Shown piece by piece: positions 17,079 to 46,292 of a DNA stretch of 50,378 bases. Origin of the DNA: a virus (taxonomy: Duplodnaviria; Heunggongvirae; Uroviricota; Caudoviricetes). The stretch covers positions 1 to 50,378 of the IMG/VR virus record IMGVR_UViG_2562617057_000009. One strand, written 5' to 3'. Numbering within the stretch: the stretch's first letter is position 1; the number at the start of each line of letters is the position of its first letter. A model generated the notes under the pieces. It worked only from the letters and a program-made list of their open reading frames with translations, searched no databases and was not told where the DNA came from. The position numbers were made by a program, and so were the translations under genes.

Positions 17079-17079
17079 A

Positions 17080-17156: not shown

Positions 17157-17158
17157 GC

Positions 17159-17234
<76 letters not shown>

Positions 17235-17237
17235 TAT

Positions 17238-17312
<75 letters not shown>

Positions 17313-17604: not shown

Positions 17605-17802
17605 ATGAAATCCATGGACAAAATTTCAACGGGCATTGCCTACGGCACCTCCGCCGGCAGTGCCGGCTACTGGTTTTTGCAGTGGTTGGATCAGGTCAGT
17701 CCATCACAGTGGGCTGCGATTGGTGTGCTGGGAAGTCTGCTTCTGGGGCTTCTGACTTATCTGACGAATCTGTATTTCAAAATTAAGAGAAGACAAGCGT
17801 AA
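17605..17802 (+). CDS. S: pinholin (phage 21 S21-type) with dual-start motif MKSM
   Basis: N-terminus [44 protein letters not shown] matches recalled S21; two transmembrane segments. Confidence 0.8.
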
Positions 17803-17824
17803 GGCTGCACGGGGAGAGTAAATA

Positions 17825-18454: not shown

Positions 18455-18519
18455 CTTATCTTAAAAGGCGTATATAAGTTGGCTCGTTATTTGTTGCCGA
18501 TAAATCCTGATAAATATCC

Positions 18520-19053
18520 ATGAGCGCAAAAATCAAATACGGCCTGTCGGCTGCTGTTCTGGCGCTGATTGCCGCAGGCGCGTCTGCTCCCCAGATACTT
18601 GACCAGTTTCTGAACGAAAAAGAGGGTAATCACACAACGGCATACCGTGATGGTTCTGGCATATGGACCATCTGTCGTGGTGCCACAATGGTGGATGGTA
18701 AGCCTGTCATACCGGGAATGAAGCTGTCGAAGGAAAAATGTGACCAGGTTAACGCTATTGAACGTGATAAGGCGCTGGCATGGGTGGAGCGCAATATTAA
18801 AGTACCTCTGACCGAACCACAGAAAGCGGGTATAGCGTCATTTTGTCCCTATAACATTGGCCCCGGTAAGTGTTTTCCGTCGACGTTTTATAAGCGGCTG
18901 AATGCTGGTGATCGTAAAGGTGCATGCGAGGCGATTCGCTGGTGGATAAAAGATGTTGGGCGCGATTGCCGCATACGTTCAAATAACTGCTATGGACAGG
19001 TTATTCGTCGTGACCAGGAAAGCGCATTAGCCTGTTGGGGGATAGATCAATGA
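18520..19053 (+). CDS. R: SAR endolysin (T4-type lysozyme with N-terminal signal-arrest-release domain)
   Basis: Gly/Ala-rich N-terminal membrane segment followed by catalytic E-x8-D-x5-T ([16 protein letters not shown]). Confidence 0.85.
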
Positions 19054-19517
19054 GCAGAGTCACCGCGATTATCTCCGCTCTGGTTATCTGCATCATCGTC
19101 TGCCTGTCATGGGCTGTTAATCATTACCGTGATAACGCCATTACCTACAAAGAGCAGCGCGACAAAAACGCAAGAGAACTGAAGCTGGCGAACGCAACCA
19201 TTACTGACATGCAGCAGCGCCAGCGTTCTGCTGATGCACTCGATGCTAAATACACGAAGGAGTTAGCTGATGCGAAAGCTGAAAATGATGCTCTTCGGCG
19301 CAAGCTTGATAATGGTGGTCGGGTGCTCGTCAAAGGAAAATGCCCTGTGCCATCCTCAGCCGAAACCTCCAGCGCCTCCGGCATGGGCAATGATGCCAGC
19401 GTCGAACTCTCTCCAGTTGCTGGACGAAACGTTCTCGGTATCAGAGACGGAATCATCAGAGACCAGACAGCACTGAGAACGCTTCAGGAATACATCAGAA
19501 CGCAGTGTCTGAATTAA
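19050..19517 (+). CDS. Rz: Rz-like i-spanin
   Basis: N-terminal transmembrane segment then coiled-coil; immediately after the endolysin. Confidence 0.75.
19270..19476 (+). CDS. Rz1: Rz1-like o-spanin lipoprotein embedded in the +1 frame of Rz
   Basis: Lipobox VVGCSS, proline-rich, wholly inside Rz in another frame. Confidence 0.6.
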
Positions 19518-19657
19518 CGGAGCTGGAATGAATGCTGTTTACCTGTTGCGGAAATAAAGATTGCATATTGCGACAATTTGTTGCATGTTTAAGGTGCGCT
19601 TTTCCAGAGCGTATGCGTACGCACCGCATGAAGTACAACCACAGAGAGGCAACCATA

Positions 19658-19888
19658 ATGGCAACAAGCATCCGTTTAGACGATGATTTCGTCAGTGACG
19701 TAAAGGTTCACGCTGATGCCGCAAGTCGCAGCATACCAAAACAAATTGAGCACTGGGCTAAGATTGGTCGTATAGCTGAAGATAATCCAGATCTGCCATT
19801 CAGTTTTATTAGCGAAGTTCTGCTGTCACAAAGCGAAATCAGACACAACAAGGTAACGCGTTATGTCAGAAGAACAGACAGGTCGTGA
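19658..19888 (+). CDS. type II antitoxin (ParD-like)
   Basis: 76-aa ORF after AGAGAGG; overlaps the start of the downstream RelE/ParE-like gene. Confidence 0.55.
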   Translation: MATSIRLDDDFVSDVKVHADAASRSIPKQIEHWAKIGRIAEDNPDLPFSFISEVLLSQSEIRHNKVTRYVRRTDRS

Positions 19889-20192
19889 AATTGATGTTTA
19901 TCAGAGTCGGCGTTTCGAAAAGTCTCTGAGTAAACTCCCGGAAGCGCAACTGAAAGTTGTGGAAGATGAGATCGACAGAATAATTGACAATCCTCTGTTG
20001 GGAACGCAAAAGAAAGGAGACCTCAGTTTTCTTCGTGTGCATAAATTTCAGCTGAATAATCAACAGGTGCTTCTGGGTTACAGCTGGCTTGACGATAAAC
20101 TTGAGCTCTACCTCCTTAGCATCGGTCCACATGAAAATTTTTATACCGATCAGAAAAAACACCGAAAAGCTGATTTAAAACTCATCGGTTAG
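19863..20192 (+). CDS. RelE/ParE-family toxin
   Basis: 109-aa basic protein in a two-gene overlapping arrangement typical of type II TA pairs. Confidence 0.55.
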   Translation: MSEEQTGREIDVYQSRRFEKSLSKLPEAQLKVVEDEIDRIIDNPLLGTQKKGDLSFLRVHKFQLNNQQVLLGYSWLDDKLELYLLSIGPHENFYTDQKKHRKADLKLIG

Positions 20193-20211
20193 TCCTGACG
20201 TCATGCATACC

Positions 20212-20237
20212 AGCCCACGTAAACGCGTGGGCTTTTT
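20212..20237 (+). terminator. intrinsic terminator after the TA pair
   Basis: 8-bp stem agcccacg/cgtgggct followed by TTTTT. Confidence 0.65.
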
Positions 20238-20448
20238 CATATCTGAATTTCACCGCGCACCGCAGCGCATGATAACCACCGAACCTGCCCCTTTGGAATG
20301 AGCCTTTGAGGATACCAGTTAGTGCTGGCGAGCCTCGGTGGGCTGGTTTCCTGTGCGGCAAAGGTTCATTTCAAAGAACAGGTATACGACATGAAATCAT
20401 TAACCTGAGGTGTACTGGCAATAGCGGACACTACCATTTGTTCTTTTT

Positions 20449-21267
20449 TTAAGCAGCCATCTGATGATATTTTTCCCTGAAGGCTGCCGGGGAGATATTC
20501 CCCAGACGAGAGTGACGACGCTGACGATTGTAGAAAATCTCAATGTATTCCCGTATTACTGAGATGGCTTCATCCCGGTTATTAAAACGATAGTGGCTCA
20601 GGCTCTCATTTTTCAGCGTTCCCCAGAAGCTTTCCATCGGAGCGTTGTCGTAACAGTTACCTTTACGCGACATTGATGTTTTCAGACCAAACTGCTCCTG
20701 TATGACCCGGTAATCGTATGCGCAGTACTGTGAACCTCGATCAGAGTGGTGGATTAGCCCGGCAGGTGGGCGCTGGCTCCTGAGCGCCATAAACAGGGCT
20801 TTACCTGTCAGCTCTTTTGTCATGCGCTCTCCCATGGCGTAGCCGACAATTTCGCACGTATAAACATCTTTGATGCCAGCGAGGTACAACCATCCCTCCT
20901 GTGTGGCAACATACGTCAGGTCCGCCACCCAGACCTGATTTGGTGCTGTAGGAGCGAACGTCTGGTTCAGCAGATTTGGCGCAACTGGCAGATTGTGGTT
21001 CGAGTTCGTAGTCGCTCTGAACTTGCGTTTCTGCTTACAGCGTAGCCTTAGCTCCTTACGAAGACGTGCCAGTCGGTCACGACCAACGATGATGCCATTC
21101 TCTGCCAGCTCCGTCTGGAGCCGCCGGGTTCCATATGTTTCGCGAGTGCGGATATGTGCCACCTTAATCTCCAGTTTTAGCCGCTCATCACTTTGTTTTC
21201 TGTCTGAGGGTTCATGCTGTACCCAGTTGTAATAACCGCTCCTGGATACACCAAATACCTGACACAT
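20449..21267 (-). CDS. IS3-family transposase OrfB (DDE catalytic domain)
   Basis: DDE-type integrase-core motifs; located after orfA with overlap expected for frameshifted OrfAB. Confidence 0.75.
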   Translation of the reverse strand: MCQVFGVSRSGYYNWVQHEPSDRKQSDERLKLEIKVAHIRTRETYGTRRLQTELAENGIIVGRDRLARLRKELRLRCKQKRKFRATTNSNHNLPVAPNLLNQTFAPTAPNQVWVADLTYVATQEGWLYLAGIKDVYTCEIVGYAMGERMTKELTGKALFMALRSQRPPAGLIHHSDRGSQYCAYDYRVIQEQFGLKTSMSRKGNCYDNAPMESFWGTLKNESLSHYRFNNRDEAISVIREYIEIFYNRQRRHSRLGNISPAAFREKYHQMAA

Positions 21268-21302
21268 CGCTTCAATGGGAAATTGTTGTCGCCATTGTTC
21301 GA

Positions 21303-21605
21303 TTAACGCGTATTTTTCAGCGACTCCTGTGCAAAATACGCTGTTGCTTTTTTTAATATATCTCGCTCAAGGCGAGCTTCATTTAACGCCTTACGCAGTT
21401 GCAGAATTTCAGATTCCAGTTCAGCCACCGTGCGGGAACCAGGAGTACCGAGCCCTTTTCTGGCGGCGGTAACCCATTGTCCTAAAGTGCCTTCAGGAAG
21501 GGATAATCGGGAAGCGCCTTCACTGATCGAAAGTTGATTTTCAAGAACCGTTCTGACAGCTTCGGCTTTGAACTCTTTAGAGTAACGTTGGGTTTTTCTG
21601 CTCAT
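21303..21605 (-). CDS. IS3-family transposase OrfA
   Basis: 100-aa HTH protein typical of IS3-family OrfA. Confidence 0.75.
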   Translation of the reverse strand: MSRKTQRYSKEFKAEAVRTVLENQLSISEGASRLSLPEGTLGQWVTAARKGLGTPGSRTVAELESEILQLRKALNEARLERDILKKATAYFAQESLKNTR

Positions 21606-22151
21606 TATTAGCTCCTTCTGATGCCATTCTATTTCAGGAAGGAGTGTCCGTTAAACTCAGGCTACCTCAACCCTCTTCAATCAGCCAATCCGTATCGGTG
21701 AAGATGGCATGATCTGCCTCACTGATATGTGGAAAGCCAGTGGTAAAAGTGAATCTGAATCTCCGTACCACTACCTGCGAAACAAGCAGACCAAAGAGTT
21801 CTTAGCCGAGCTGGAGAAAAACCACGAATCTGTGGTTTTTACTGAGCGCGGTGTACACGGTGGAACATATGGCGGGAAGTTTGTTGCTTATGATTATGCA
21901 GCATGGCTAAACCCCGGATTTAAATATGCAGCCTATAAAGTCCTGGATGACTACTTCACCGGAGAACTTCAGCATCGCAACAGCTTAAGTGCGCAGCTCA
22001 ATATGAAGTGTCATGAGTTTGATCAGAAAAAAGATATGGCGAGCTTCTGTGGACAAGGGCTGGCGGCATGGCGCTATACGAAGCCAGTGTTGGTCGCTGA
22101 GATTAACTCCCTGGCTAACCAGCTGCAGATAACGATCCCCGGGCTTCCGGG

Positions 22152-22409
22152 ATGAGTGATCGTGTCATTGAATGCGCCTCCAGAGCGGGGCGCGACTTCT
22201 CAGAGTTCATGAAAGGCGAGAAGGGCATGATGGAAGCATTGGCCTCGGTGGATGAGTTTGGCGAGCAGCTGCGCCTCAACGGCTGTGTCAATCATCACTT
22301 TGTTAGCTACATGATGCGGAACTCGATCATGCAGGCATTCATGGACATGGCAAAAGCCGAGAGGAAAGAAGAGCGCCGGCGTAAGCGAGCGGAAGCAAAA
22401 GCGAAGTAG
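22152..22409 (+). CDS. hypothetical protein
   Basis: 85-aa ORF overlapping the KilA-N stop. Confidence 0.45.
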   Translation: MSDRVIECASRAGRDFSEFMKGEKGMMEALASVDEFGEQLRLNGCVNHHFVSYMMRNSIMQAFMDMAKAERKEERRRKRAEAKAK

Positions 22410-22832
22410 CCATTACAAAGCCCATCTACTGGTGGGCTTGATAATGGCTTATACCCTACACGGGATAACTTAACTGATATCCCTTTTAACGGATAAAGGT
22501 ATTCAAGCCTGACACATCATGCGCTGTATCGTCGCTGTATTCCCGCATTAACCATGACCGTAGCCCGACGGGGAACTCCTTCTGCGCGAGTGTGCGGGAA
22601 TAATCAAAAACGATGCACACCGGGTTTTTACCGCGTTTATGGTTCGCGGGTTTGTCCCTCATGCTCGCCAGTCCTGTGCGGGGGTGGAAGAAACAGGACA
22701 CTTACACTGATTCTTGTGGGTACGATGCTATTCCTTTCTGGATTATCCCGATGTCATTCATGCAGGGCGCTGTATCAGACGTTCGTCATGGCTGTCAGGC
22801 TGACGGGTCCTCCCGGTGGGGTGGCCTGCCAC

Positions 22833-22980
22833 GGGGCGGGAGCGGCGCAGAATTTCACTATTTATGAAAATTTTTCGGAAACCATGTCCGGTTTCTCTGA
22901 AGGTTAACCATTTGAAAAATATAGAAATGTGCCTTCTGCGAACCGGACATGCGCAAAAATTGAACACTCAAACCGGACAT
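22833..22980. other. cos region (cosN-like core ggggcgggagcggcgc and ACCGGACAT repeats) of the lambdoid prophage
   Basis: Sequence pattern ...TTACGGGGCGG...CTATTTATGAAAATTTT... resembles the recalled lambda cos; ~220 bp upstream of Nu1. Confidence 0.6.
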
Positions 22981-23058
22981 ATATGCCGCGTTTCATAAAG
23001 TTGTTCGCAAGATGCATGTTTAAAACGCATGAGGGGAGATTTTTTGGCGAGGTGAACA

Positions 23059-23568
23059 GTGGCTACTCAGACTGAAGTTGCCAGGCATTTGAGTCTGACC
23101 GATCGCCAGCTTCGCAGATTACAGAAACTGCCGGGTGCCCCGGTTTCGAACAAGCGAGGACAACTGGATCTGGATGCCTGGCGTGATTTTTACATATCGT
23201 ATCTGAGAAGAAGTAAAAACGATGTGCCTGATGGTGATCCGGAAGAGGATTATGAAGAGAAACTACTCATTGCGAGATGGGAACTGACCGCAGAACAGGC
23301 TGTCGCACAGCAGTTAAAAAATCAGGTGTCAAAAGGAAATCTTATTGATAGCGGATTTTGTATTTTTGCCCTTAGTAAGCTGGCGATGGCTTTATCCAGT
23401 ACGCTTGACTCCATTCCTTTGTCCATGCAACGACAGTTCCCGGATTTAACGCCGCGTCATATTGATCATCTGAAAATCCTTATTGCTAAGGGAGCGAATC
23501 AGTGCGCGCGTGCGGGGGATAAATTACCGGATTTACTCGATGAATATATCAGAACAACAACTGAGTAA
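23059..23568 (+). CDS. nu1: terminase small subunit (lambda Nu1-like)
   Basis: C-terminal region aligns with recalled lambda Nu1 (FCIFALSKLA...LPLSMQRQFPDL...HIDHLK); GTG start. Confidence 0.8.
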   Translation: MATQTEVARHLSLTDRQLRRLQKLPGAPVSNKRGQLDLDAWRDFYISYLRRSKNDVPDGDPEEDYEEKLLIARWELTAEQAVAQQLKNQVSKGNLIDSGFCIFALSKLAMALSSTLDSIPLSMQRQFPDLTPRHIDHLKILIAKGANQCARAGDKLPDLLDEYIRTTTE

Positions 23569-24900
23569 TATGATGGTGGCAGTCACTATCGCACTGCAGC
23601 CACTGGTCAGGGTATTGCCGGTGACGGCTGTAGAATGGGCCGATCAAAATTATTACCTGCCTAAAGAATCGTCATACGGTGAGGGGGAATGGAAAACGCT
23701 GCCGTTTCAGGTCGCCATCATGAACTGCATGGGCAATGACGAGATTCGTACAGTTAACCTGATTAAATCTGCCCGTGTTGGTTATACAAAGATGTTGCTG
23801 GGGGTGGTCGGGTATTTTATTGAGCATAAATCCCGCAACAGCCTGCTTTTTCAGCCCACTGACTCGGCTGCTGAAGATTTTATGAAGTCTCACGTGGAGT
23901 CGACGATCCGGGACGTACCCTGTCTGAAAGCCCTTTCTCCATGGCTGGGACGTAAACATCGTGACAATACCCTCACACTGAAACGCTTTTCCTCCGGCGT
24001 GGGATTCTGGTGTCTGGGCGGTGCAGCTGCCAAAAACTACCGTGAAAAATCTGTGGATGTGGTCTGCTATGACGAACTCTCCTCGTTTGAACCGGATGTG
24101 GAAAAAGAAGGTTCGCCGACGCTGCTTGGCGATAAACGTATCGAAGGTTCGGTATGGCCTAAATCCATACGCGGCTCAACGCCAAAAATTAAAGGCTCCT
24201 GTCAGATTGAAAAAGCTGCGAATGAATCTGCGCATTTCATGCGGTTTTATGTCCCTTGCCCTCATTGCGGGGAGGAGCAGTATCTGAAGTTTGGCGATGA
24301 TGCGACGTCGTTTGGCCTGAAATGGGAGAAGGGTAAACCGGAAACGGTGTATTACCTGTGTGAACATAATGGCTGCGTGATCCGTCAGTCTGAACTTGAT
24401 CAGACCGGGGGGCGCTGGATTTGTGACAATACCGGGATGTGGACGCGTGACGGCCTGACATTTTACAGCGTCGGTGATGAGGAGATACCCCCGCCACGTT
24501 CTGTCACTTTCCACATCTGGACGGCGTACAGCCCGTTCACTACCTGGGCGCAGATTGTTTATGACTGGCTGGATGCACTGAAGGATCCTAACGGCGTCAA
24601 GACGTTTGTAAACACCACACTGGGGGAGACCTGGGAAGAGGCCGTGGGCGAAAAACTCGATCACCAGGTGCTGATGGATAAGGTTGTGCATTACCCGGCG
24701 GCGGTGCCTGTCCGGGTGGTTTACCTGACTGCTGGTATTGACTCGCAGCGAAACCGTTTTGAGATGTATGTCTGGGGATGGGCTCCGGGAGAGGAAGCCT
24801 TTCTGGTGGATAAAATCATCATTATGGGACGACCTGATGAGGAAGAGACGCTGTTACGTGTGGATGCGGCGATCAACAAAAAATACCGCCATGCAGACGG
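23540..24900 (+). pseudogene. A: terminase large subunit (lambda gpA-like), 3'-truncated by IS1
   Basis: Collinear with recalled lambda A for ~450 aa (TAVEWADQNYYLPKES...); reading frame runs into the IS1 left end at 24901. Confidence 0.8.
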
Positions 24901-24955
24901 GGTGATGCTGCCAACTTACTGATTTAGTGTATGATGGTGTTTTTGAGGTGCTCCA

Positions 24956-25231
24956 GTGGCTTCTGTTTCTATCAGCTGTCCCTCCTGTTCAGCTACTGAC
25001 GGGGTGGTGCGTAACGGCAAAAGCACCGCCGGACATCAGCGCTATCTCTGCTCTCACTGCCGTAAAACATGGCAACTGCAGTTCACTTACACCGCTTCTC
25101 AACCCGGTACGCACCAGAAAATCATTGATATGGCCATGAATGGCGTTGGATGCCGGGCAACTGCCCGCATTATGGGCGTTGGCCTCAACACGATTTTACG
25201 TCACTTAAAAAACTCAGGCCGCAGTCGGTAA
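24956..25231 (+). CDS. insA: IS1 InsA
   Basis: 91-aa protein matching recalled InsA. Confidence 0.9.
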
Positions 25232-25653
25232 CCTCGCGCATACAGCCGGGCAGTGACGTCATCGTCTGCGCGGAAATGGACGAACAGTGGGGCTATGTCG
25301 GGGCTAAATCGCGCCAGCGCTGGCTGTTTTACGCGTATGACAGTCTCCGGAAGACGGTTGTTGCGCACGTATTCGGTGAACGCACTATGGCGACGCTGGG
25401 GCGTCTTATGAGCCTGCTGTCACCCTTTGACGTGGTGATATGGATGACGGATGGCTGGCCGCTGTATGAATCCCGCCTGAAGGGAAAGCTGCACGTAATC
25501 AGCAAGCGATATACGCAGCGAATTGAGCGGCATAACCTGAATCTGAGGCAGCACCTGGCACGGCTGGGACGGAAGTCGCTGTCGTTCTCAAAATCGGTGG
25601 AGCTGCATGACAAAGTCATCGGGCATTATCTGAACATAAAACACTATCAATAA
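25150..25653 (+). CDS. insB: IS1 InsB reading frame
   Basis: 167-aa ORF matching recalled InsB. Confidence 0.85.
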
Positions 25654-25668
25654 GTTGGAGTCATTACC

Positions 25669-25951
25669 CGGTATAGCGTATGACGATCCGGGGAGCGGAA
25701 ATAACCTAGGAGGCACGCGATACACGGGTTATGGTTTTGAAGTTCGCAAAAACGGCGTATTAATCGCATCCAGAGAAACTAAAGGGGCCATTCCCGGTAG
25801 TTACAGTGCAGTTATTGATATGCCTAGTGGTGGTGGTAGCGTCACTCTGGAGTTTAAGATTTTCCAGAAAGGCAATCAGGGGGCAGGCAATATCACCGAC
25901 TGTACGGTGATTGTGACCAAAAAAGCGGCTTCCGGCATCAGTATTCGTTGA
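25669..25951 (+). pseudogene. 3' fragment of a tail protein gene (probably host-specificity protein J, by position upstream of lom)
   Basis: Open frame begins at the IS1 right end without a start codon. Confidence 0.4.
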
Positions 25952-26020
25952 AATTGTTATAACCCATATAAGGGCACCAGAAATGGTGCCTTTTTTATTG
26001 CAGAAAAGCGAGAGGTAATT

Positions 26021-26620
26021 ATGCGTAAACTTTATGCCGCCATTTTGTCCGCAGCCATTTGTCTGGCCGTATCCGGTGCGCCTGCATGGGCATCTGAACA
26101 TCAGTCCACGCTGAGCGCGGGGTATCTTCATGCCTCGACGAACGTTCCCGGCAGCGATGATCTTAACGGGATTAACGTGAAATACCGTTATGAGTTTACG
26201 GACACACTGGGGCTGGTGACGTCATTCAGCTATGCAGGAGACAAGAATCGCCAGCTTACCCGTTACAGCGATACCCGCTGGCATGAAGATTCCGTGCGTA
26301 ACCGCTGGTTCAGCGTGATGGTGGGGCCGTCTGTGCGCGTGAATGAATGGTTCAGCGCGTATGCGATGGCGGGTATGGCTTACAGCCGTGTGTCGACTTT
26401 CTCCGGGGATTATCTCCGCGTAACTGACAACAAGGGGAAAACGCACGATGTGCTGACCGGGAGTGATGACAACCGCCACAGCAACACGTCTCTGGCGTGG
26501 GGGGCTGGCGTGCAGTTTAACCCGACCGAATCCGTGGCCATTGACCTTGCTTATGAAGGTTCCGGCAGTGGCGACTGGCGCACTGACGGTTTCATCGTGG
26601 GTGTCGGTTATAAGTTCTGA
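26021..26620 (+). CDS. lom: Lom/Ail/PagC-family outer-membrane protein
   Basis: Signal peptide, beta-barrel-like alternating pattern, C-terminal ...GVGYKF. Confidence 0.8.
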
Positions 26621-26683
26621 TTAGCCAGGTAACACAGTGTTATGACAGCCCGCTGGTTCAGGCGGGCTTTTTGTGGGGTGAAT

Positions 26684-28099
26684 ATGGCAGTAAAGATTTC
26701 AGGTGTACTGAAAGATGGGGCGGGTAAACCTGTCGTAAATTGTGCGATTGAACTGCGGGCCAGAAGAACCAGTCCGACCGTTGTGGCACACGTTGTTGCC
26801 ACTTGCGTGACGGACAATAACGGTGCTTATGTGATTGAGGCTGAGCCGGGGTATTACGAGGTTGCGCTTCACTGTAACGGCTGGCAGCCAACCCGTGTCG
26901 GGGATATTGATGTGGCACCGACTGATGCACCGGGGACACTGAACGCGTTTCTGAATGCACCAAAGGATGGTGATTTACGTCCGGAGGTGATGAAGCGCTT
27001 TGAGGAAATGGTGGCGCAGGCGCAGCAGAGTGCCGGGGCTGCAGCCGGAAACGCACAGCAGACGGCGCAGGATGTGGCGCCAGCCGCAACGGCCCGTGAT
27101 GATGCACAACGTTTTGCGGAGAATGCCAGACAGGATGCAGTTGCCACTGCAGAGGACAGAAAGGCCACTGCGGAAGACGTGAAAAGCACGGGGAAAAACG
27201 CCGTCTTATCCGGTCAGCGTGCACAGGCAGCCGCAGGTTATGCCCGCGCAGCAGAACAGGCCAAAAATGACATTGATGCTGCGCTGACCGGCACTCTGAA
27301 AACGGCTAACCATCTGTCTGAAATCGCAGCAGCAGGCGAAAAGGCACAACAGAAGTCCCGGGATAATCTGGGGCTGAAAAGTGCGGCCACGATGGAAGCA
27401 CAGAGCGACATTTACGACCGGACAAAAGGCCGTCTGGCGATACCCGGCGCATTCGGCTTTGGGTGTGCTTTTCTGCCTGAAGATGTTATCCGTTTTGACA
27501 CTAAGAGTGATTTCCTGGCCTGGGTAAGGAATGCGCTGCCAGGTGAATATTCCGTTGCTGGCCCCTACGACATCATCATACCCGACACACGGTTTGAAGG
27601 GGTGCTCAGCATCCGGTGGACTGATGCACGCCCTGAGACAACAGAACCGCGGTACAGAGCCAAATCCCTTACTTTTTACGGCATTAACGGCCCCATTTAT
27701 CACACCCGCTACTGCTACTGGCCCATATCCAGACTGACTGGCTGGGTGAAAATAAATATAACCACAGAAGATATTATTTACAGAATCGTGGCGAGCTCTG
27801 TCTGCAACAGATGGGGAGACCCTGACATTGGCGGGCTGATTATTGCTGCGTACCAGGGAGAAGCTGACGGTGATAAAGTCATCAGACTTGTCAGGGGGCA
27901 GTCATACAGAGGCTCACGACTGGGACCGGTGGGGATTTCAGTGCCCAGTACTCCCACCGGAACGTATATAGCATCCCCACAATTTTTCATTACGGGATGT
28001 TCAGAGCATTCATTACCGGGGTCATATTGCGCCCTGTCCGGGGTGCCGGATGCACATGTCTCTGGCGCAATGCCCGGGCTTTTTATTCGCACATCGTGA
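26684..28099 (+). CDS. stf: side tail fiber protein (Stf-like)
   Basis: N-terminus MAVKISGVLKDGAGKPV matches recalled lambda Stf; Ala/Gln-rich shaft. Confidence 0.75.
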   Translation: MAVKISGVLKDGAGKPVVNCAIELRARRTSPTVVAHVVATCVTDNNGAYVIEAEPGYYEVALHCNGWQPTRVGDIDVAPTDAPGTLNAFLNAPKDGDLRPEVMKRFEEMVAQAQQSAGAAAGNAQQTAQDVAPAATARDDAQRFAENARQDAVATAEDRKATAEDVKSTGKNAVLSGQRAQAAAGYARAAEQAKNDIDAALTGTLKTANHLSEIAAAGEKAQQKSRDNLGLKSAATMEAQSDIYDRTKGRLAIPGAFGFGCAFLPEDVIRFDTKSDFLAWVRNALPGEYSVAGPYDIIIPDTRFEGVLSIRWTDARPETTEPRYRAKSLTFYGINGPIYHTRYCYWPISRLTGWVKINITTEDIIYRIVASSVCNRWGDPDIGGLIIAAYQGEADGDKVIRLVRGQSYRGSRLGPVGISVPSTPTGTYIASPQFFITGCSEHSLPGSYCALSGVPDAHVSGAMPGLFIRTS

Positions 28100-28109
28100 G
28101 GAATGCACC

Positions 28110-39363: not shown

Positions 39364-41635
39364 GGAAAACTCCCCAGTTTTGCAGCGATGCCAGTGCCTG
39401 CTGTTCGAGTTGTTGATGATGTGCAATGGCCTGTGGTGGACAATGCAACGGCATTTGCAGCGCCGAAACGGGAAGTTGCGCCAGTTGATAATGCTCAAGC
39501 ACCTGATGCGCCAGCGTCCCGCGTTCTCGTGGTGGTAGCCAGGCCATCGCCGCGCGTAAATCGGGCAGGGCGTTAATAAAATCGGCTTCACTCAGTTGAT
39601 TTAAATGACTGCTGAAACCGGCGATAAATGCCGGCTGACAGGCCAGTTGATGGCGGGCCAGCGCCAGCAAACCGTGCAGCGCCTCACCAGATTGTGCCGG
39701 GGATAACTGCGCCAGCATCGTCAGCGCCGCTTCGGCACTGGCGTTGGGATGTTCCAGACGCATTAGTGCGCCAAGAGCCGCGCCGCGATCCAGCGCCGGG
39801 GCATGAATTGCCTGACTGCGTCGCTCCAGTAAGGCTACCGCCGCAGAAAGAGAAACGCCGGGTAAATTAACGCCGCTATGTAGATCGCGCAGAATATGGC
39901 AAAGCGCTTGCCAGCTATGCAGGTGAGCGTGAAACTCCTTTTCATCCGGTCTGCCGTTAGATTCACACAGCCACAGCGTGCGATAGATAGTCGCGCATAA
40001 CGTCGTTTGTAATATCTGCGCGCCTTGCATACCGCTAATTTCATCCAGCCGCCATAAGGCATAAAGCACTTCCAGCGCCTGGCCCATTTCGGCAAATTGA
40101 TTTTCCTGGGCGATTAATAGTGTGAGTTGCTCCAGTAATTGTTGACTGAAGGACGCCAGACCCGCTAACGCCGCCTGGCTAAGACATGTGGTGATACTGC
40201 CGATTCCGCCCGCGTCCAGCATATCGGCTTCTAATTTATTGCGTGCGGCTTCCTGGAGTGTGGCACCAAAACAGGCGGCCTCAATCAATGCCGCATGCTG
40301 GCTAAGCGGGCGGGTTAATTTCCAGCGTTCTTCACCGTTGCCTGCAAGTGTCAGTGTACTTCCCTGCTGGCGTACAATCCCAGGGATCTCCAGTATTGCC
40401 AGCCGATGTAACACCTGACTTTGCGCCAGCCCATCGGGGGTAAAGCGATTTAAGGTAAGCTCCGCCGGAAGGGAGATTGCGGTACGTTCCAGTTCGCAGG
40501 TGACATCTTTTGGCAGAGGCGGTTGTGGCGTAGAAGGGGCAAGTTTACCGAATCCGTCACCCGCTAATGTGTCTATCAACGTTAGCAGAATCGGATCGGT
40601 ATCGGGATGAATAACGCCGCGATAGCTCCACGGCAACGGCGCGTTCAGGGCTTCTTTAATCAGCGAGCCTGCTATGGCATCCAGCCAGTCAGTGCGTAAC
40701 GGTAGTGTATGACCGCGCAACTGTGCCAGCGCCATCGCATGCAGATGAGCGGCAGCCATATCCGCGGTAGAAGCGGGCAATTTGTGCTGGCGCAAACGGG
40801 TAAGGATAGTTTTTAGCAGTTGTTCACCGGCCTTCTGCAAGCCCCACTGCCAGCACCAGTTTTGCCATACCGGGGCAGGCATTCCTGAAAGGTATCCTGC
40901 CAGCACATCAAGGCGCTTTTCACTGTAGGGTGTGAGATAACAACCTGTAACGGCATCTGCCAGCGAGGGCAATTCTGGCTTGTTAATTTTCTGAGGGCAT
41001 TCGCGCCACATCTTTGCCAGTGCCGGAGCGTGCCAGCCACCGCAGACAACTAACACGTCGCCATTATTTTGCTGCATCGCCCATCCAATCCAGCGGGCCA
41101 TAAAGGCTTCGCGCTGACGATTGAGCGCATCGCCGGAGGCGTCGCCCCGCAGTTGGGCAAAATAGTGCGCCAGCGCAGAGGGTAATGCAGTTTGCTGGCT
41201 TTCATCTTCGAACAAGTGATCCCACAGGGTATCGCTGTTATCCATGCGGGTGGCACGCAGCAGTAAGGCCTGGCTTTCATCTTGCGTATCAGGCGAATCG
41301 TCCTCTTCTTCACTCTGCGCCCAGCAAGGCAAATCGATGAAGTAAGTTTGTGCCTGAATGCGACGTGCGGCTTGTAGCGCCTGCCACTCCGGCGAAAATT
41401 CAGCAAATGGCGTCCAGGCACCACGCCCGGGGGCTGCACCGTCCTGATACTGGCAATAACTGTAAATAGCTACCGGAAGCTGGTGGGCTAAAAACAGTTC
41501 GTCTACCCGGTCATTAAAATCAGCCGGGCCTTCAATCAACACGTATCGTGGCCGCTGGCTTTCGATTAACGATTTCACCAGCCGGGCGCAGGCCGGACTA
41601 TGATGCCGGATGCCGACAATTAACGGCTCGCTCAT
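39356..41635 (-). CDS. yehM: YehM
   Basis: 759 aa from MSEPLIVGIRHH; length matches recalled YehM. Confidence 0.7.
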   Translation of the reverse strand: MSEPLIVGIRHHSPACARLVKSLIESQRPRYVLIEGPADFNDRVDELFLAHQLPVAIYSYCQYQDGAAPGRGAWTPFAEFSPEWQALQAARRIQAQTYFIDLPCWAQSEEEDDSPDTQDESQALLLRATRMDNSDTLWDHLFEDESQQTALPSALAHYFAQLRGDASGDALNRQREAFMARWIGWAMQQNNGDVLVVCGGWHAPALAKMWRECPQKINKPELPSLADAVTGCYLTPYSEKRLDVLAGYLSGMPAPVWQNWCWQWGLQKAGEQLLKTILTRLRQHKLPASTADMAAAHLHAMALAQLRGHTLPLRTDWLDAIAGSLIKEALNAPLPWSYRGVIHPDTDPILLTLIDTLAGDGFGKLAPSTPQPPLPKDVTCELERTAISLPAELTLNRFTPDGLAQSQVLHRLAILEIPGIVRQQGSTLTLAGNGEERWKLTRPLSQHAALIEAACFGATLQEAARNKLEADMLDAGGIGSITTCLSQAALAGLASFSQQLLEQLTLLIAQENQFAEMGQALEVLYALWRLDEISGMQGAQILQTTLCATIYRTLWLCESNGRPDEKEFHAHLHSWQALCHILRDLHSGVNLPGVSLSAAVALLERRSQAIHAPALDRGAALGALMRLEHPNASAEAALTMLAQLSPAQSGEALHGLLALARHQLACQPAFIAGFSSHLNQLSEADFINALPDLRAAMAWLPPRERGTLAHQVLEHYQLAQLPVSALQMPLHCPPQAIAHHQQLEQQALASLQNWGVFHV

Positions 41636-41645
41636 GCATCTTTCC

Positions 41646-42402
41646 TCACGGCAGGCGGTGGCGGGCTTGATAATAAGCCTGCCAGTGAGCTTCTTTATGT
41701 GTGGCGACACGCTGTTCGAAGTAACGGCGCAGACGCGCGCGATCTTCTTCGTTATCTTTGACGATGGTTCCGGCAATACATTCCACCAGGTCGGCAGGCT
41801 CCCCCGCGCGATTCGCTAAAAACCAGGCGCGGACGCCCACAGCATGGGCCACGTTCACGGCTTCAGCGGTGGACATAATCGCTGTCAGTGTATCCATTGA
41901 CGTTTTCTTTTCGCCGTTGGCACGCAGATCGCGGAAGGTGCGGACCAGTAATTCCAGTACCGCGTCAGGCACTTTATGCGGAATACCGCTATGGGCCAGC
42001 AAACGCGCCGAAGCACTGGCGACCAGTTCCAACTCCTGGGCGAAATCCATAATCGGAAAAACCGTTTCAAAATCGAAGCGACGCTTTAGCGCAGCACTCA
42101 TTTCATTGACGCCGCGATCGCGGGTATTGGCAGTGGCAATAATATTAAAGCCTTCTCGCGCATAGAGCTGACTGGCTTCACCAGTGAGTTCCGGCACCGT
42201 CATCACCCTGTCAGAAAGCATACCTAACAGACAGTCCTGCACTTCCAGCGGTGTACGCGTTATCTCTTCGAAACGGACGATTTTGCCGTCGCGCATTCCC
42301 TGATAAAGCGGGGCAGGGACCAGCGCTTCCGTTGACGGACCATGATTGATAAGCAGGGCGTAGTTCCAGCCATACTTGATTTGATCTTCGGTGGTAGATG
42401 CC
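41646..42402 (-). pseudogene. yehL: YehL (MoxR-type AAA ATPase), 5'-truncated by IS186
   Basis: Open frame continues upstream of the listed ORF to the IS186 end at 42403; roughly 110 N-terminal codons missing. Confidence 0.6.
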
Positions 42403-43741
42403 CATAAGCGCTAACTTAAGGGTTGAACCATCTGAAGAATGCGACGCCTCGGTGCCTCGTTAAGACGATGCCTCGCGTTCTTCAATTGCGTTTTGTAGGC
42501 TGTCAGGGATACTGTCCCACGAATGGCCACCTGTAAGCTCCAGATGACCATTTTTGTTATTCTCCACAACGAGTTAGTTCTTCTTTTCGGATCCGGCACT
42601 TCTGGGGGGGAAATCCAGCGATGGCTGGATTATGTCGTCAATTAAAAATGCGGCGAGTAGATTAGCAAATATCCACGCTTTCGCGAGTTCAGGTTCCTTT
42701 GCACGCAAAGCATCCAGGTGCAGCAAACTTTTGAGCCGCTTAAAAGCCAGTTCAATTTGCCATCGCAGACGGTAACAATCAGCCACTTGCTCTGCTGAAT
42801 ATTCATCTTCCGGTAATGATGTTAGCAATAGCACATGGCCCGCTGCTTCCAGCGTTTCCGCCTGAACTACTCGTCCTTTTCGACGATTCTCGCTGAGCAG
42901 TCGGGTTTTACTGATTAATGCTTTTTCGGGAGGAAGTGATACGGCAATGAGACGTGCCGGAAAGGGAGCTCCGGCTTTTTTATTACCTGAATTGCCTATC
43001 ATTACAGTGGTTTCACCGTTCTTACCGCAATCCAGCCCGCGCAGAAAACCCATCATGTCAAAGCGCATTCCTTCTGCAGTTAACCAGCGCAATCCTCGCC
43101 AGTGAACCCGGACGATATAATCAGCTTCTCCAAAAGCAAGTGAGCGGATACATTCGGGACGCGAACCGAATCCCCGGTCAGCAATGCGTATCTCGTCTGC
43201 CGTTTGCGCAAATCGGTCCAGCCGTTCAGCGTCTCTGCTGTCGGTTAGCTCAAAATCAGTGAACTGACAGGTATGAGGATCATATCCCATATGTAGTCGC
43301 CATTCAGCGCTGCCGCCCCCGGGCGCACTGATTGCTGTTCCATCGACAAGACGCAATCTCTTTCCGCTTGTACAACCCGTAACTGCGGCGCGTACAGCAA
43401 GTGTTTGTGCGGCAAGTATGCCAAACCAGTCGGCGGCATTCCGCAGCCGCTTCAGGAGAGCCACGTCAGATAATGTTGCAACGTCATGGAGCTGAGCCCA
43501 TGCAGTGACTTCACGTAATGACATCCCCCCGGGGCCGTAAGCCAGCCCCAGACGTAGCAGAGTTGCAGCATCACGAATTTCGCGGCGGCGGGTTAGAGCC
43601 CCGGCATTACGTGCCGAAGTATCCAGTTCTTCGGGCTTACCAATATGGGCCAGAATTGCTGACCAGTTATCGTGAGAGTAATTCATCGGCACGTTAAATC
43701 ATATCAGGCGTAATACCACAACCCTTAAGTTAGCGCTTATG
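42403..43741 (-). mobile_element. IS186 (IS4 family, ~1339 bp)
   Basis: Terminal inverted repeats CATAAGCGCTAACTTAAGGGTTG at both ends; transposase matches recalled IS186; flanks differ on the two sides. Confidence 0.8.
42574..43692 (-). CDS. IS186 transposase
   Basis: 372-aa ORF filling the element. Confidence 0.8.
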   Translation of the reverse strand: MPMNYSHDNWSAILAHIGKPEELDTSARNAGALTRRREIRDAATLLRLGLAYGPGGMSLREVTAWAQLHDVATLSDVALLKRLRNAADWFGILAAQTLAVRAAVTGCTSGKRLRLVDGTAISAPGGGSAEWRLHMGYDPHTCQFTDFELTDSRDAERLDRFAQTADEIRIADRGFGSRPECIRSLAFGEADYIVRVHWRGLRWLTAEGMRFDMMGFLRGLDCGKNGETTVMIGNSGNKKAGAPFPARLIAVSLPPEKALISKTRLLSENRRKGRVVQAETLEAAGHVLLLTSLPEDEYSAEQVADCYRLRWQIELAFKRLKSLLHLDALRAKEPELAKAWIFANLLAAFLIDDIIQPSLDFPPRSAGSEKKN

Positions 43742-44058
43742 GGGAATTTTCCCCGCACACGCCGGAGAACTGGATCACCACGCACAACGGCATTGAGTAC
43801 ACGGCACCAGCACCAGGGGAGAACATCCGCGACAACGCTCCAAACTTTCATAAATGGCTTGATCACGCTGCCGGAAAAGATCCGGGCAAGATGATGCGTA
43901 TATGCGCCGCGCTATACATGATTATGGCGAACCGGTACGACTGGCAGATGTTTATTGAGGCCACCGGAGACGGCGGGAGCGGCAAGAGCACTTTCACGCA
44001 CATAGCCAGCCTTCTGGCAGGGAAACAGAACACAGTAAGGCAGTATGACTTTCCGTGA
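43742..44058 (+). pseudogene. internal fragment of a P4-type primase/helicase gene (Walker A GDGGSGKS)
   Basis: Frame reads ...YDWQMFIEATGDGGSGKSTFTHIASLLAGKQN...; no start codon; begins at the IS186 end. Confidence 0.6.
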
Positions 44059-44059
44059 G

Positions 44060-45565
44060 ACAGATGCTGGCCAACGTGGGATATTTAACGCGGGTTAACA
44101 TCGTTGTCAGAGCCGCATGGGTGAGCTGTTGCTACACCCCGGTATTTCCACCACGGAGGCCAGCATGAACAACAATAACACATTGTACGTCGGGTTAGAT
44201 GTTCACAAAGAATCGATTACTGTCGCTTATGCTATCAATTCAGAACCTGTTGAACTGATGGGTAAAATTGGCACATCACCTACTGATATTCAGAATCTTT
44301 GTAAACGTCTCAGGTCAAAGTCATCGCAGGTCAGTATCGTTTATGAAGCGGGGCCCTGTGGTTATGGACTTTATCGTCGGCTGGTGAAATCCGGTTTTGA
44401 CTGCATGGTCTGCGCCCCCTCACTTATCCCGAAAAAACCGGGGGAGCGGGTTAAAACCGATCGCCGTGATGCCATCAGACTTGTGCGTTCACTGCGTGCA
44501 GGAGATCTTTCTGCTGTCTACGTACCCGGCATTGAAGATGAGGCATTCCGGGATTTGGCCCGGGCATGGGCATCTGCCCGCGATGATTTACGGCATGCAA
44601 GGCAACGTCTGAAATCGTTTCTTCTGGTTCATGGGGTCCATTATGTCGGGCGAGCAGATTGGGGCCCTGCACACCGACGCTGGCTCAGCAAATACTCATT
44701 CGAAAGTCCCTGGCGACAATTAGCTTTTGACGAACACCGTCGTACAATAGAAGACCGGCAGGCACAATGTGAACGGCTGGAATCCGCCCTGAAGGAGGCC
44801 GTTACCGAATGGAGGCTGTATCCGGTAGTAGAGGCGCTGCAAGCCATGCGAGGGATTCAGTTTATTACTGCGGTTGGATTAATTTCTGAACTGGGTGATC
44901 TGACCCGTTTTGAACATCCACGACAACTGATGTCATGGTTTGGTATCACGCCATCAGAATATTCATCGGGTGGAAGCAGACATCAGGGCAGCATTACCAA
45001 AGCCGGAAACAGCTATGCCAGAAAGCTATTGGTCGAGGCAGCGTGGAGTTACCGTCATCCGGCACGCATCAGTCCGGCAATACAAAAAAGGCAGGAAAAT
45101 TTACCCCGCCCCGTCATTGACAGAGCATGGGATGCTCAACTCAGGCTTTGTAAGAGGTATCGAAAACTTCAGGCCAAAGGAAAGAATGTCAATATTACAA
45201 TTGTTGCTGTTGCACGTGAGCTGGCGGGTTTTATCTGGGATATGGGCCGAATAGCAATGTCTGTCGCACAACAACCACAATGTCACAAATAAAAAATGAG
45301 AATAACCAGTTCCCTGAAGGCGACGTAGCCCGGTACAAGAGTAACCCACGTTAGCGCTTGGCGACGGCGGAACAAAGCTGATTCGCGACGTAAGAAAGTG
45401 GCAGGCTCATATGACGGACCTCTGTAATGCGGTATCCAACCCGCGAATATCAGCGTGATTCACCGTCGGATTTACTGCTACGTCGCCCTCAGGGAATTAA
45501 ACCTAAAAAGAAAATCGTCAAAATTAGAGATTCCGGTTTGACACGGAAAGTCATATCAGCGCTGA
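44060..45565 (+). mobile_element. IS110-family insertion sequence (boundaries approximate) inserted in the primase gene
   Basis: Transposase with DEDD-type N-terminus (LYVGLDVHKESITVA); primase coding sequence resumes at 45567. Confidence 0.55.
44165..45292 (+). CDS. IS110-family transposase
   Basis: Start MNNNNTLYVGLDVHK; ~375 aa. Confidence 0.7.
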   Translation: MNNNNTLYVGLDVHKESITVAYAINSEPVELMGKIGTSPTDIQNLCKRLRSKSSQVSIVYEAGPCGYGLYRRLVKSGFDCMVCAPSLIPKKPGERVKTDRRDAIRLVRSLRAGDLSAVYVPGIEDEAFRDLARAWASARDDLRHARQRLKSFLLVHGVHYVGRADWGPAHRRWLSKYSFESPWRQLAFDEHRRTIEDRQAQCERLESALKEAVTEWRLYPVVEALQAMRGIQFITAVGLISELGDLTRFEHPRQLMSWFGITPSEYSSGGSRHQGSITKAGNSYARKLLVEAAWSYRHPARISPAIQKRQENLPRPVIDRAWDAQLRLCKRYRKLQAKGKNVNITIVAVARELAGFIWDMGRIAMSVAQQPQCHK

Positions 45566-45566
45566 G

Positions 45567-46292
45567 ATGACATCGCTTGATGATGCTGGTGGGCGTGCAC
45601 AGGTTGTCGGGAGTCGTCTTATCGTCCTGGCAGACCAGCCGAAATATACAGGCGAAGGAACGGGCATCAAGAAAATCACGGGCGGCGACCCCGTGGAAAT
45701 TAACCCGAAATATGAAAAGCGTTTTACGGCGGTAATCAGGGCGGTGGTGCTGGCAACCAATAACAATCCGATGATATTCACCGAACGGGCCGGAGGCGTG
45801 GCACGTCGTCGCGTGATTTTCCGTTTCGACAATATCGTCAACGAGGCCGAAAAAGACAGGGAACTACCGGAAAAGATTGCGGCTGAAATCCCCGTCATTA
45901 TCCGCCGATTACTGGCGAACTTTGCAGACCCTGAAAAGGCGCGGGCTTTACTACTGGAACAGCGTGACGGTGATGAAGCACTGGCGATAAAGCAGCAAAC
46001 GGATCCGGTTATTGAGTTTTGCCAGTTCCTGAATTTTCTGGAGGAAGCACGTGGCCTGATGATGGGTGGCGGTGGCGATTCCGTGAAGTACACGACCAGA
46101 AACAGCCTTTACCGCGTCTATCTGGCGTTTATGGCATACGCAGGCAGAACCAAACCACTAAACGTAAATGACTTTGGCAAGGCCATGAAGCCAGCCGCAA
46201 AAGTTTACGGACATGAATATATTACGCGAAAAATTAATGGAGTGACGCAGACTAACGCAATAACAACCGACGATTGCGACGCGTTTTTATAA
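45567..46292 (+). pseudogene. 3' part of the P4-type primase/helicase gene
   Basis: Continues the primase C-terminal region (LIVLADQPKYTGEGTGIKKITGGDPVEINPK...). Confidence 0.65.

What the first reader, a model, noticed from the sequence alone, without database searches (positions are those of the whole stretch)
42380..43760. IS186 forms a junction between truncated yehL and a truncated P4-type primase
Both genes abutting IS186 are incomplete (yehL lacks its 5' end; the primase lacks its 5' end) and the flanking sequences are unrelated. This indicates an IS-mediated rearrangement that placed the island remnant next to the yeh locus.
Basis: partly seen in the sequence, partly recalled or inferred. 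Interest (0 to 1): 0.4.

Follow-up and report, generated by a model that had tools for sequence, protein, structure and literature searches.

The report
IS186-bounded 119-kb chromosomal inversion endpoint
An ordinary IS186 insertion sequence marks one end of a 119-kb chromosome inversion in enteroinvasive E. coli 53638, formed by recombination between two inverted IS186 copies; it is a textbook kind of rearrangement.

Summary
Window 42403-43741 is a complete 1339-bp IS186, 99.6% identical to K-12 IS186A, with 23-bp inverted repeats and an intact transposase. On its left lies the 3' 757 nt of yehL on the minus strand. On its right lies a satellite-island primase starting at nt 725. The two flanks (GGTAGATGCC and GGGAATTTTCC) are not a target duplication.

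The window is E. coli 53638 (EIEC), scaffold AAKB02000001.1. I found the reciprocal junction 119 kb away: primase 5' part, GGGAATTTTCC, an identical inverted IS186, then the yehH 5' part and metG. The 11-bp primase duplication is therefore split between the two IS copies.

A near-identical NCTC assembly shows the un-inverted precursor. It has a simple IS186 insertion in the primase with that duplication, plus yehH'-IS186-yehL3', about 120 kb apart in K-12 gene order.

The inferred history is:
- IS186 insertions at GGGG(N6)CCCC-type sites.
- A roughly 9-kb deletion running from yehH to yehL.
- An IS186 x IS186 inversion.

The main caveat is that only one Sanger-era scaffold shows the inverted state, so misorientation is not fully excluded. 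This is ordinary IS-driven genome plasticity, of low interest.

The parts
1..42402 (.). Right-hand 42.4 kb of the roughly 119-kb inverted chromosomal segment (record AAKB02000001.1 3831529-3950549). It contains an ipaH-bearing prophage, btsSR and yehS-yehM, and ends in the yehL 3' fragment.
   Evidence: Window = record coordinate minus 3908147. Window 6553-42402 is collinear, in reverse, with CP119441.1 3001648-3036229.
41646..42402 (-). yehL 3' fragment (nt 333-1089 of 1089; MoxR/AAA_5 ATPase lacking its N-terminal 111 codons, including Walker A).
   Evidence: 100% identical to intact yehL of CP119441.1 up to the IS. Pfam AAA_5 on the intact protein.
42393..42402 (.). Orphan half of the yehL target-site duplication, GGTAGATGCC.
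   Evidence: ETEC LR883012.1 has IS186 at the same site and in the same orientation, with GGTAGATGCC on both sides. The partner copy is absent from the 53638 reciprocal junction.
42403..43741 (-). IS186 copy A (1339 bp). Inverted repeats at 42403-42425 and 43719-43741; transposase (insL) at 42574-43686 on the minus strand.
   Evidence: It is 100% identical to copy B at the other inversion end.
43742..43752 (.). One copy of the 11-bp primase target-site duplication, GGGAATTTTCC. With the terminal G of the IS it restores the canonical IS186 target GGGGAATTTTCCCC.
   Evidence: The second copy lies next to IS186 copy B on the primase 5' fragment (L036...ACGGGGGAATTTTCC|IS). The un-inverted NCTC strain has both copies flanking one IS. 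The motif is described in PMC5009759.
43742..44039 (+). Middle fragment of the satellite-island primase (nt 725-1022 of 1755).
   Evidence: 100% identical to the intact primase gene of FDAARGOS_943 (L052 6000-6298). The intact 584-aa protein matches D5_N, DUF5906 and Pox_D5.
44040..45557 (+). ISSso6 (IS110 family) inserted in the primase; transposase ORF at 44117-45292.
   Evidence: Boundaries come from alignment to the uninterrupted primase. NCBIfam transpos_IS110 at 273.7 bits. Annotated as ISSso6 in relatives.
45558..46292 (+). 3' fragment of the primase (nt 1021-1755, through the stop codon).
   Evidence: 100% identical to L052 6297-7031.

Best explanation
The IS186 at 42403-43741 is one of two identical, inverted IS186 copies that bound a roughly 119-kb inversion in the chromosome of EIEC strain 53638. 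Each step below is marked as shown or inferred.

1. **Insertions.** IS186 inserted into three GGGG(N6)CCCC-type targets: yehH (duplication AGTAGTCTCC), yehL (GGTAGATGCC) and the primase gene of a satellite island at proL (GGGAATTTTCC). Each simple insertion is seen in some genome. That all three occurred in this lineage is inferred.
2. **Deletion.** Homologous recombination between the directly oriented yehH and yehL copies deleted about 9 kb (yehH 3' part, yehI, yehK, yehL 5' part). This left yehH5'-IS186-yehL3'. That state is shown in two NCTC assemblies.
3. **Inversion.** Homologous recombination between that copy and the inverted primase copy flipped the segment between them. This produced yehL3'(rc)-IS186-primase3' (this window) and primase5'-IS186-yehH5'(rc), 119 kb away. 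Both junctions are shown. The recombination mechanism is inferred.

The consequences are that yehL, yehH and the primase are all dead, the satellite island is split in two, and 119 kb now lies in reversed orientation relative to replication.
For: - **Source.** The window is 100% identical to E. coli 53638 AAKB02000001.1 across the junction.
- **Reciprocal junction.** In the same scaffold the order is yejK-yejL-yejM-int-AlpA-Ash/Icd-DUF4222-primase5' (248 aa, ending GEFSHKR*)-IS186-yehH5' (513 aa)-metG. The IS is 1339/1339 identical to the window copy and inverted in the chromosome.
- **Split duplication.** The sequences are ...GGGGGAATTTTCC|IS-B and IS-A|GGGAATTTTCCCC..., and the intact site is ACGGGGGAATTTTCCCCGCAC.
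- **Precursor state.** One contig of GCA_900450475.1 carries primase5'-GGGAATTTTCC-IS186-GGGAATTTTCC-primase3' and yehH5'-IS186-yehL3'. The copies are inverted and 119,878 bp apart, against 119,021 bp in 53638. The flanks are about 99.98% identical to 53638.
- **Ancestral order.** CP119441.1 has intact yehL and an IS186-free primase 117 kb apart on the same strand.
- **Strand logic.** Two 3' gene parts on opposite strands fit an inversion, not a deletion.
- **Nested intermediates.** A simple yehH::IS186 insertion is listed in 337 index blocks. The deletion form occurs in two assemblies. The inversion form occurs only in 53638 among the 24 longest contigs read.
- **Target motif and mechanism.** IS186's GGGG(N6/N7)CCCC target, and inversion by recombination between inverted IS copies, are documented in PMC5009759. 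High inversion rates in Shigella are documented in PMC8072062.
Against: - Only one assembly, a Sanger-era scaffold, shows the inverted state. None of 5,426 complete E. coli genomes has either window junction combination.
- A single reciprocal crossover predicts that one of the two 53638 copies keeps the G at IS position 1059. That G is present in the NCTC yeh copy and in the CP119441 yehH copy. Both 53638 copies have C. This requires gene conversion, or it reflects a consensus-filled repeat in the assembly.
- The middle ~60 kb of the segment was not inspected.
Confidence: 0.83

Rival explanations
1. Assembly artefact. The true 53638 chromosome has the NCTC-type arrangement, and the scaffolder mis-oriented the 119-kb segment lying between two identical 1339-bp inverted repeats.
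For: The two IS copies are 100% identical, so orientation depends entirely on spanning clones or reads. No other assembly shows the junction. The 1059 G/C difference seen in relatives is absent from both 53638 copies, as it would be if the repeats were filled with a consensus. PMC5009759 notes that such inversions give no signal in short-insert data.
Against: A 1.3-kb repeat is easily spanned by the plasmid or fosmid mate pairs normally used in Sanger projects (my own knowledge; the 53638 genome paper was not held). Both junction sequences are clean and base-perfect, with the expected duplication halves. IS-mediated inversions are very common in this pathovar.
Confidence: 0.11
2. One-step transposition-coupled inversion. 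The yehH'-IS186-yehL3' copy attacked the primase target on the same chromosome in a replicative, intramolecular event. That single event created the second copy, the 11-bp duplication and the inversion. The NCTC arrangement would then be a later flip-back.
For: Intramolecular replicative transposition leaves exactly the structure seen: inverted copies at both ends, with the new duplication split between them in inverted orientation. Both copies are identical.
Against: IS186 is an IS4-family DDE element. The studied members of that family (IS10, IS50) move by non-replicative cut-and-paste (established knowledge). A near-identical strain carries the plain insertion with a direct 11-bp duplication, which is the simplest intermediate for a two-step route.
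Confidence: 0.05
3. IS186-mediated deletion, or a translocation that moved an island fragment to the yeh locus.
For: A single IS lies between two unrelated truncated genes, which is also what adjacent deletions produce. An IS186 x IS186 deletion did occur at yehH-yehL.
Against: The retained parts are both 3' parts on opposite strands. The supposedly missing primase 5' part and the island's left arm are present at the other IS186 copy. The island's right side is still next to its native yejO neighbourhood.
Confidence: 0.01

Closest known systems
IS186 (IS186A/B/C of E. coli K-12; IS4 family; PGAP name 'IS421 family')
   Same: It is 99.6% identical over 1339 bp. It has the same 23-bp inverted repeats and a 370-aa DDE transposase whose exact sequence occurs in more than 55,000 index blocks. 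It sits at a canonical GGGG(N6)CCCC target with a 10-11-bp duplication.
   Different: Nothing intrinsic differs. This copy is a recombinant whose two flanks come from different insertion events.
IS-mediated chromosomal inversions by homologous recombination between inverted IS copies (as catalogued in Shigella/EIEC, PMC8072062, and in the E. coli work described in PMC5009759)
   Same: Two inverted identical IS copies bound a reversed segment, their flanks are exchanged, and the duplication is split.
   Different: This is a small (119 kb) event within one chromosome arm. It is layered on an earlier IS186 x IS186 deletion. I found no report of this particular inversion; my only search for one was.
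IS186 hot-spot insertions (lon promoter; the 16-fold hit site in mutation-accumulation lines, PMC5009759)
   Same: The primase site GGGGAATTTTCCCC and the yehL site are hit repeatedly and in both orientations in unrelated strains.
   Different: Here the hot spot lies inside the coding sequence (TGEFSP motif) of a satellite primase, not in a promoter.
P4 alpha primase-helicase / P4-like satellites
   Same: The intact homologue has D5_N, DUF5906 and Pox_D5 domains, and its best NCBIfam hit is TIGR01613 'phage/plasmid primase, P4 family'. The island also encodes an integrase, AlpA and Icd-like genes.
   Different: The TIGR01613 score (106.8 bits) is just under the curated cutoff (108.7). The protein is 584 aa, whereas P4 alpha is 777 aa (my own knowledge). 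The annotations of the intact island list no Psu, Delta or Sid genes. It carries major capsid, head decoration and head-tail connector genes, the combination that defines cfPICI.

Membership tests
IS186 (IS4 family insertion sequence) | About 1.34-kb element nearly identical to the K-12 reference IS186 | tested here: met
   1339 bp, 99.56% identical to IS186A of MG1655.
IS186 (IS4 family insertion sequence) | Terminal 23-bp inverted repeats | tested here: met
   CATAAGCGCTAACTTAAGGGTTG is perfect at both ends, 42403-42425 and 43719-43741.
IS186 (IS4 family insertion sequence) | Single DDE transposase of the IS4 family | tested here: met
   PF01609 at 93.7 bits. NF033592 at 133.3 bits, above the cutoff of 115.
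IS186 (IS4 family insertion sequence) | Insertion at GGGG(N6/N7)CCCC with a 10-11-bp target duplication | tested here: met
   This copy's own flanks do not match each other. Each half is paired elsewhere: GGGAATTTTCC with copy B and in the NCTC strain, and GGTAGATGCC in ETEC LR883012. Motif from PMC5009759.
IS186 (IS4 family insertion sequence) | Transposition activity of this copy | not testable with these tools
   The ORF and inverted repeats are intact.
Inversion by recombination between inverted IS copies | A second copy of the same IS in inverted orientation at the other breakpoint | tested here: met
   The L036 IS at record 3830190-3831528 is 100% identical and in the opposite orientation in the scaffold.
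Inversion by recombination between inverted IS copies | Reciprocal exchange of flanks and of target-duplication halves | tested here: met
   The primase 5' part with GGGAATTTTCC is at copy B, and GGGAATTTTCC with the primase 3' part is at copy A.
Inversion by recombination between inverted IS copies | Interior segment collinear but reversed relative to related genomes | tested here: inconclusive
   This is shown for 36 kb at one end and about 9 kb at the other. The segment length matches the NCTC strain (119.0 vs 119.9 kb). The middle ~60 kb could not be fetched.
Inversion by recombination between inverted IS copies | Un-inverted precursor with both IS copies in a close relative | tested here: met
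   GCA_900450475.1 contig UGGJ01000006.1.
Inversion by recombination between inverted IS copies | Physical confirmation of orientation (spanning reads or PCR) | not testable with these tools
   Only the deposited scaffold is available.
P4-family primase (TIGR01613) | Score at or above the curated cutoff of TIGR01613 | tested here: not met
   106.8 bits against a cutoff of 108.7 on the intact 584-aa homologue. This is a near miss.
P4-family primase (TIGR01613) | D5_N / DUF5906 / Pox_D5 helicase-type domain set | tested here: met
   All three are above the Pfam gathering scores.
P4-like satellite island | Psu-Delta-Sid hijacking operon | not tested
   The annotations of the intact relative list capsid, decoration and connector genes, and no gene named psu, delta or sid. 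No profile search for these genes was run. Family definitions from PMC10085698.

The most novel reading that the evidence does not exclude
The canonical IS186 target GGGGAATTTTCCCC is embedded in the conserved TGEFSP coding motif of this family of satellite (cfPICI/P4-type) primases. The satellites could therefore be a recurrent, possibly selected, landing pad. IS186 repeatedly knocks out satellite replication in independent E. coli lineages and seeds chromosomal inversions or deletions from there. The repeated independent hits are shown: both orientations, 10- and 11-bp duplications, two island locations, and diverged N-terminal alleles. Any selective or functional significance is pure speculation.
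Probability: 0.1. Interest if true: 0.35.

Novelty: already known. Interest (0 to 1): 0.12.

Why it matters
It matters little beyond bookkeeping. The result explains why yehL and the primase appear as unrelated truncated neighbours in E. coli 53638. It shows that the strain differs from its closest relatives by a 119-kb inversion within one chromosome arm, plus a 9-kb deletion. It also gives a worked example of an IS186 history reconstructed from split target duplications, with every intermediate found in public assemblies. It flags a junction in a widely used EIEC reference scaffold that should be checked with long reads. Finally, it documents two more recurrent IS186 hot spots, in yehL and in the satellite primase.

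Tried and rejected
1. **Same junction in complete genomes.** I searched 5,426 complete E. coli genomes. None has it. One ETEC genome has the left junction as a simple insertion, four genomes have IS186 at the yehL site in the opposite orientation, and VL40 has IS186 at the primase site in the opposite orientation.
2. **Contexts of the IS186 transposase.** The look-up was useless because the exact protein occurs in 55,212 index blocks.
3. **Homology search with the primase N-terminus.** It did not return the 53638 fragment. It did reveal other alleles ending in GEFSHKR*.
4. **First prediction for the reciprocal junction.** I predicted yehK-yehL5'-IS186-primase5'. Exact chimeric proteins built from CP119441 alleles were not in the collection. 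The real junction carries the yehH 5' part instead, so the model was revised to add a prior deletion.
5. **Simple deletion or translocation.** Rejected on strand logic and by the reciprocal junction.
6. **Source papers.** The SaiSree et al. 2001 IS186 consensus paper and the Rasko et al. 2008 genome paper are not held. I used PMC5009759 for the target motif.
7. **Chance expectation for the motif.** One GGGG(N6)CCCC match in 50 kb against 0.55 expected is uninformative on its own. The argument rests on the split duplication, not on motif counts.

Full report
**Observation**

The sequence at 42380-43760 contains a complete IS186 at 42403-43741 (1339 bp). It is 99.56% identical to IS186A of K-12 MG1655. 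It has perfect 23-bp inverted repeats (CATAAGCGCTAACTTAAGGGTTG). Its intact 370-aa transposase gene lies on the minus strand at 42574-43686 and matches Pfam DDE_Tnp_1 and NCBIfam IS4 family above their cutoffs.

Immediately to the left, 41646-42402 (-) is the last 757 nt of the 1089-nt yehL gene. It is 100% identical to the intact gene of the closest complete genome, E. coli O121 EIEC strain 201805972 (CP119441.1). The first 332 nt, which encode the Walker A box, are missing.

Immediately to the right, 43742-44039 (+) is nt 725-1022 of a 1755-nt primase gene. An IS110-family ISSso6 follows at 44040-45557, and the primase 3' end follows at 45558-46292. The flanks read GGTGGTAGATGCC|IS186|GGGAATTTTCCCC, so there is no target duplication.

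**Native positions of the two flanks**

In CP119441.1, yehL is intact at 3,001,316-3,002,404. The primase N-terminal part is continuous (cut only by ISSso6) at 3,118,175-3,119,194. It lies inside an island integrated at tRNA-Pro between yejM and yejO. The two genes are 117 kb apart on the same strand, and neither carries IS186.

The whole left part of the window, at least 6553-42402, is collinear with CP119441.1 but reversed. The right part continues in native order towards yejO. Two 3' gene halves on opposite strands, with one side reversed, predict an inversion rather than a deletion.

**Source genome and reciprocal junction**

An exact-protein look-up of the truncated YehL ORF identified the window as E. 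coli 53638 (EIEC), scaffold AAKB02000001.1. It is 100% identical over 18.7 kb across the junction, and the record coordinate equals the window coordinate plus 3,908,147.

My first prediction for the other breakpoint was yehK-yehL5'-IS186-primase5'. It failed an exact-sequence test. A 53638-specific protein of the island's left arm (P0165) then led to the real junction at record 3,823,234-3,844,643. The gene order there is yejK, yejL, yejM, integrase, AlpA, Ash/Icd, DUF4222, primase 5' fragment (248 aa, ending ...GEFSHKR*), IS186, yehH 5' fragment (513 aa, WGR domain), metG.

That IS186 (record 3,830,190-3,831,528) is 1339/1339 identical to the window copy and lies in the opposite orientation in the scaffold. 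Its primase-side flank is ...ACGGGGGAATTTTCC|IS, and the window has IS|GGGAATTTTCCCCGCAC. The intact site is ACGGGGGAATTTTCCCCGCAC. An 11-bp duplication, GGGAATTTTCC, is therefore split between the two copies. This is the signature of one insertion followed by exchange between IS copies. The segment between the copies is 119,021 bp.

**Intermediates in other assemblies**

| State | Where seen | Detail |
|---|---|---|
| Un-inverted precursor | GCA_900450475.1, contig UGGJ01000006.1 | Simple IS186 insertion in the primase with GGGAATTTTCC on both sides, plus yehH5'-IS186-yehL3'. Copies are inverted, 119,878 bp apart, in K-12 gene order. Flanks differ from 53638 by about 1 SNP per 6-10 kb. |
| Deletion form only | Second assembly, GCA_900449825.1 | yehH5'-IS186-yehL3'. 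|
| Simple yehH::IS186 insertion | CP119441.1 and many others | Duplication AGTAGTCTCC; 337 index blocks. |
| Simple yehL::IS186 insertion | ETEC LR883012.1 | Same site and orientation; duplication GGTAGATGCC. |

The most economical history has four steps:
- IS186 inserted in yehH and in yehL.
- Recombination between these direct copies deleted about 9 kb (yehH 3' part, yehI, yehK, yehL 5' part).
- IS186 inserted into the primase in inverted orientation.
- Recombination between the inverted copies flipped 119 kb.

This accounts for every half-duplication. GGTAGATGCC (window left) and GGAGACTACT, the reverse complement of AGTAGTCTCC (L036 right), are orphans of the deletion. The GGGAATTTTCC pair is split by the inversion.

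**Target specificity**

[quoted passage not shown] The primase site, GGGG-AATTTT-CCCC, is canonical. The yehL site, GGGG-CATCTA-CCAC, is one base off.

Both sites are recurrent hot spots:
- IS186 occupies the yehL site in either orientation in at least five complete genomes, and the chimeric 117-aa product occurs in 101 index blocks.
- The primase site is occupied in the opposite orientation, with a 10-bp duplication, in VL40. There the island sits between cspD and clpS, and the IS has since recombined with a copy near fiu.
- Primase alleles with diverged N-termini (88% and 65% identity) also end in the diagnostic GEFSHKR* tail.

**Rival explanations**

Three alternatives were weighed; the main one is assembly misorientation.

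- **Assembly misorientation.** Two identical inverted 1.3-kb repeats leave orientation dependent on spanning clones. No other assembly shows either 53638 junction. A G at IS position 1059 is present in the NCTC yeh copy and the CP119441 yehH copy, but absent from both 53638 copies. A plain reciprocal crossover should have left it in one of them. Gene conversion during recombination explains this, but so does consensus filling of repeats. I give this rival about 0.11.
- **One-step replicative intramolecular transposition.** It would leave the same structure. It is disfavoured because IS4-family elements studied so far move by cut-and-paste (established knowledge), and because the plain-insertion intermediate exists (about 0.05).
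- **Deletion or translocation.** Both are excluded by the reciprocal junction.

**Comparison with known systems and novelty**

The element is IS186 itself. The mechanism, recombination between inverted IS copies, is textbook and is frequent in Shigella (PMC5009759; PMC8072062).

The 'P4-type primase' label is only approximately right. The intact 584-aa homologue has D5_N, DUF5906 and Pox_D5 domains. Its best NCBIfam hit is TIGR01613 (P4 family), at 106.8 bits against a cutoff of 108.7. The island carries major capsid, head-decoration and head-tail connector genes, which fit a degraded capsid-forming PICI rather than a P4-like satellite.

Nothing here is a new kind of element or mechanism. I found no report of this specific inversion; my only search for one was.

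**Verdict**

My confidence is about 0.83.
- The residual doubt is scaffold orientation in a single assembly.
- Interest is low (0.12).

Noticed in passing
window 44040-45557: An ISSso6 (IS110 family) cuts the primase a second time. The same insertion is present in CP119441.1, VL7S7, VL40 and the NCTC strain, so it predates the IS186 insertion.
   Followed up: partly
window 46290-50378 (and L052/L004 for the intact island): The island at proL encodes SSB, a lambda-E-type major capsid protein, a head decoration protein and a head-tail connector, in addition to integrase, AlpA, Ash/Icd and the primase. This gene set is cfPICI-like rather than P4-like. In 53638 it is split between the two inversion ends.
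   Followed up: partly
IS186 position 1059 (counted from window 42403); L015, L003, L036, L038: The NCTC yeh copy and the CP119441 yehH copy have G. The NCTC primase copy and both 53638 copies have C. This implies either gene conversion accompanying the inversion or consensus-filled repeats in the 53638 scaffold.
   Followed up: partly
L002 (VL40, NZ_CM177011.1 1789.6-1791.2 kb): IS186 sits at the very same primase site in the opposite orientation, with GGAATTTTCC on its primase side. It lies in a second island copy next to clpS, and its other flank is the fiu region. This is an independent IS186 hit followed by another IS186-mediated rearrangement.
   Followed up: partly
L049 (GCA_037957325.1 JARWBV010000003.1): A yehH5'-IS186-dmsC(rc) junction. 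The yehH IS186 copy has taken part in yet another rearrangement in a different strain.
   Followed up: no
window 20489-20503: GGGGAGATATTCCCC is the only other GGGG(N6/N7)CCCC motif in the window. It is an unoccupied potential IS186 target.
   Followed up: no
window 46391-46447: There is a short extra stretch downstream of the primase relative to FDAARGOS_943, and the alignments overlap by 28 bp, which suggests a small tandem duplication. CP119441.1 shows the same alignment break.
   Followed up: no
P0009 (not in the window): Some primase alleles are frameshifted exactly at the G5 run of the IS186 target site (...LKTGNFPRTRRR...). The homopolymer is therefore also a slippage site.
   Followed up: no
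window 1-6552: The leftmost prophage region is not collinear with the otherwise closest genome, CP119441.1. It matches other EIEC strains (FDAARGOS_944, CFSAN029787) at about 99%. This is a mosaic ipaH-bearing prophage.
   Followed up: no
L013 (CP050198.1): Two tandem IS186 copies, separated by a masked N-run, lie at a different yehL site (duplication GGTCCCTGCC). This is a third IS186 target within the yehH-yehL region.
   Followed up: no
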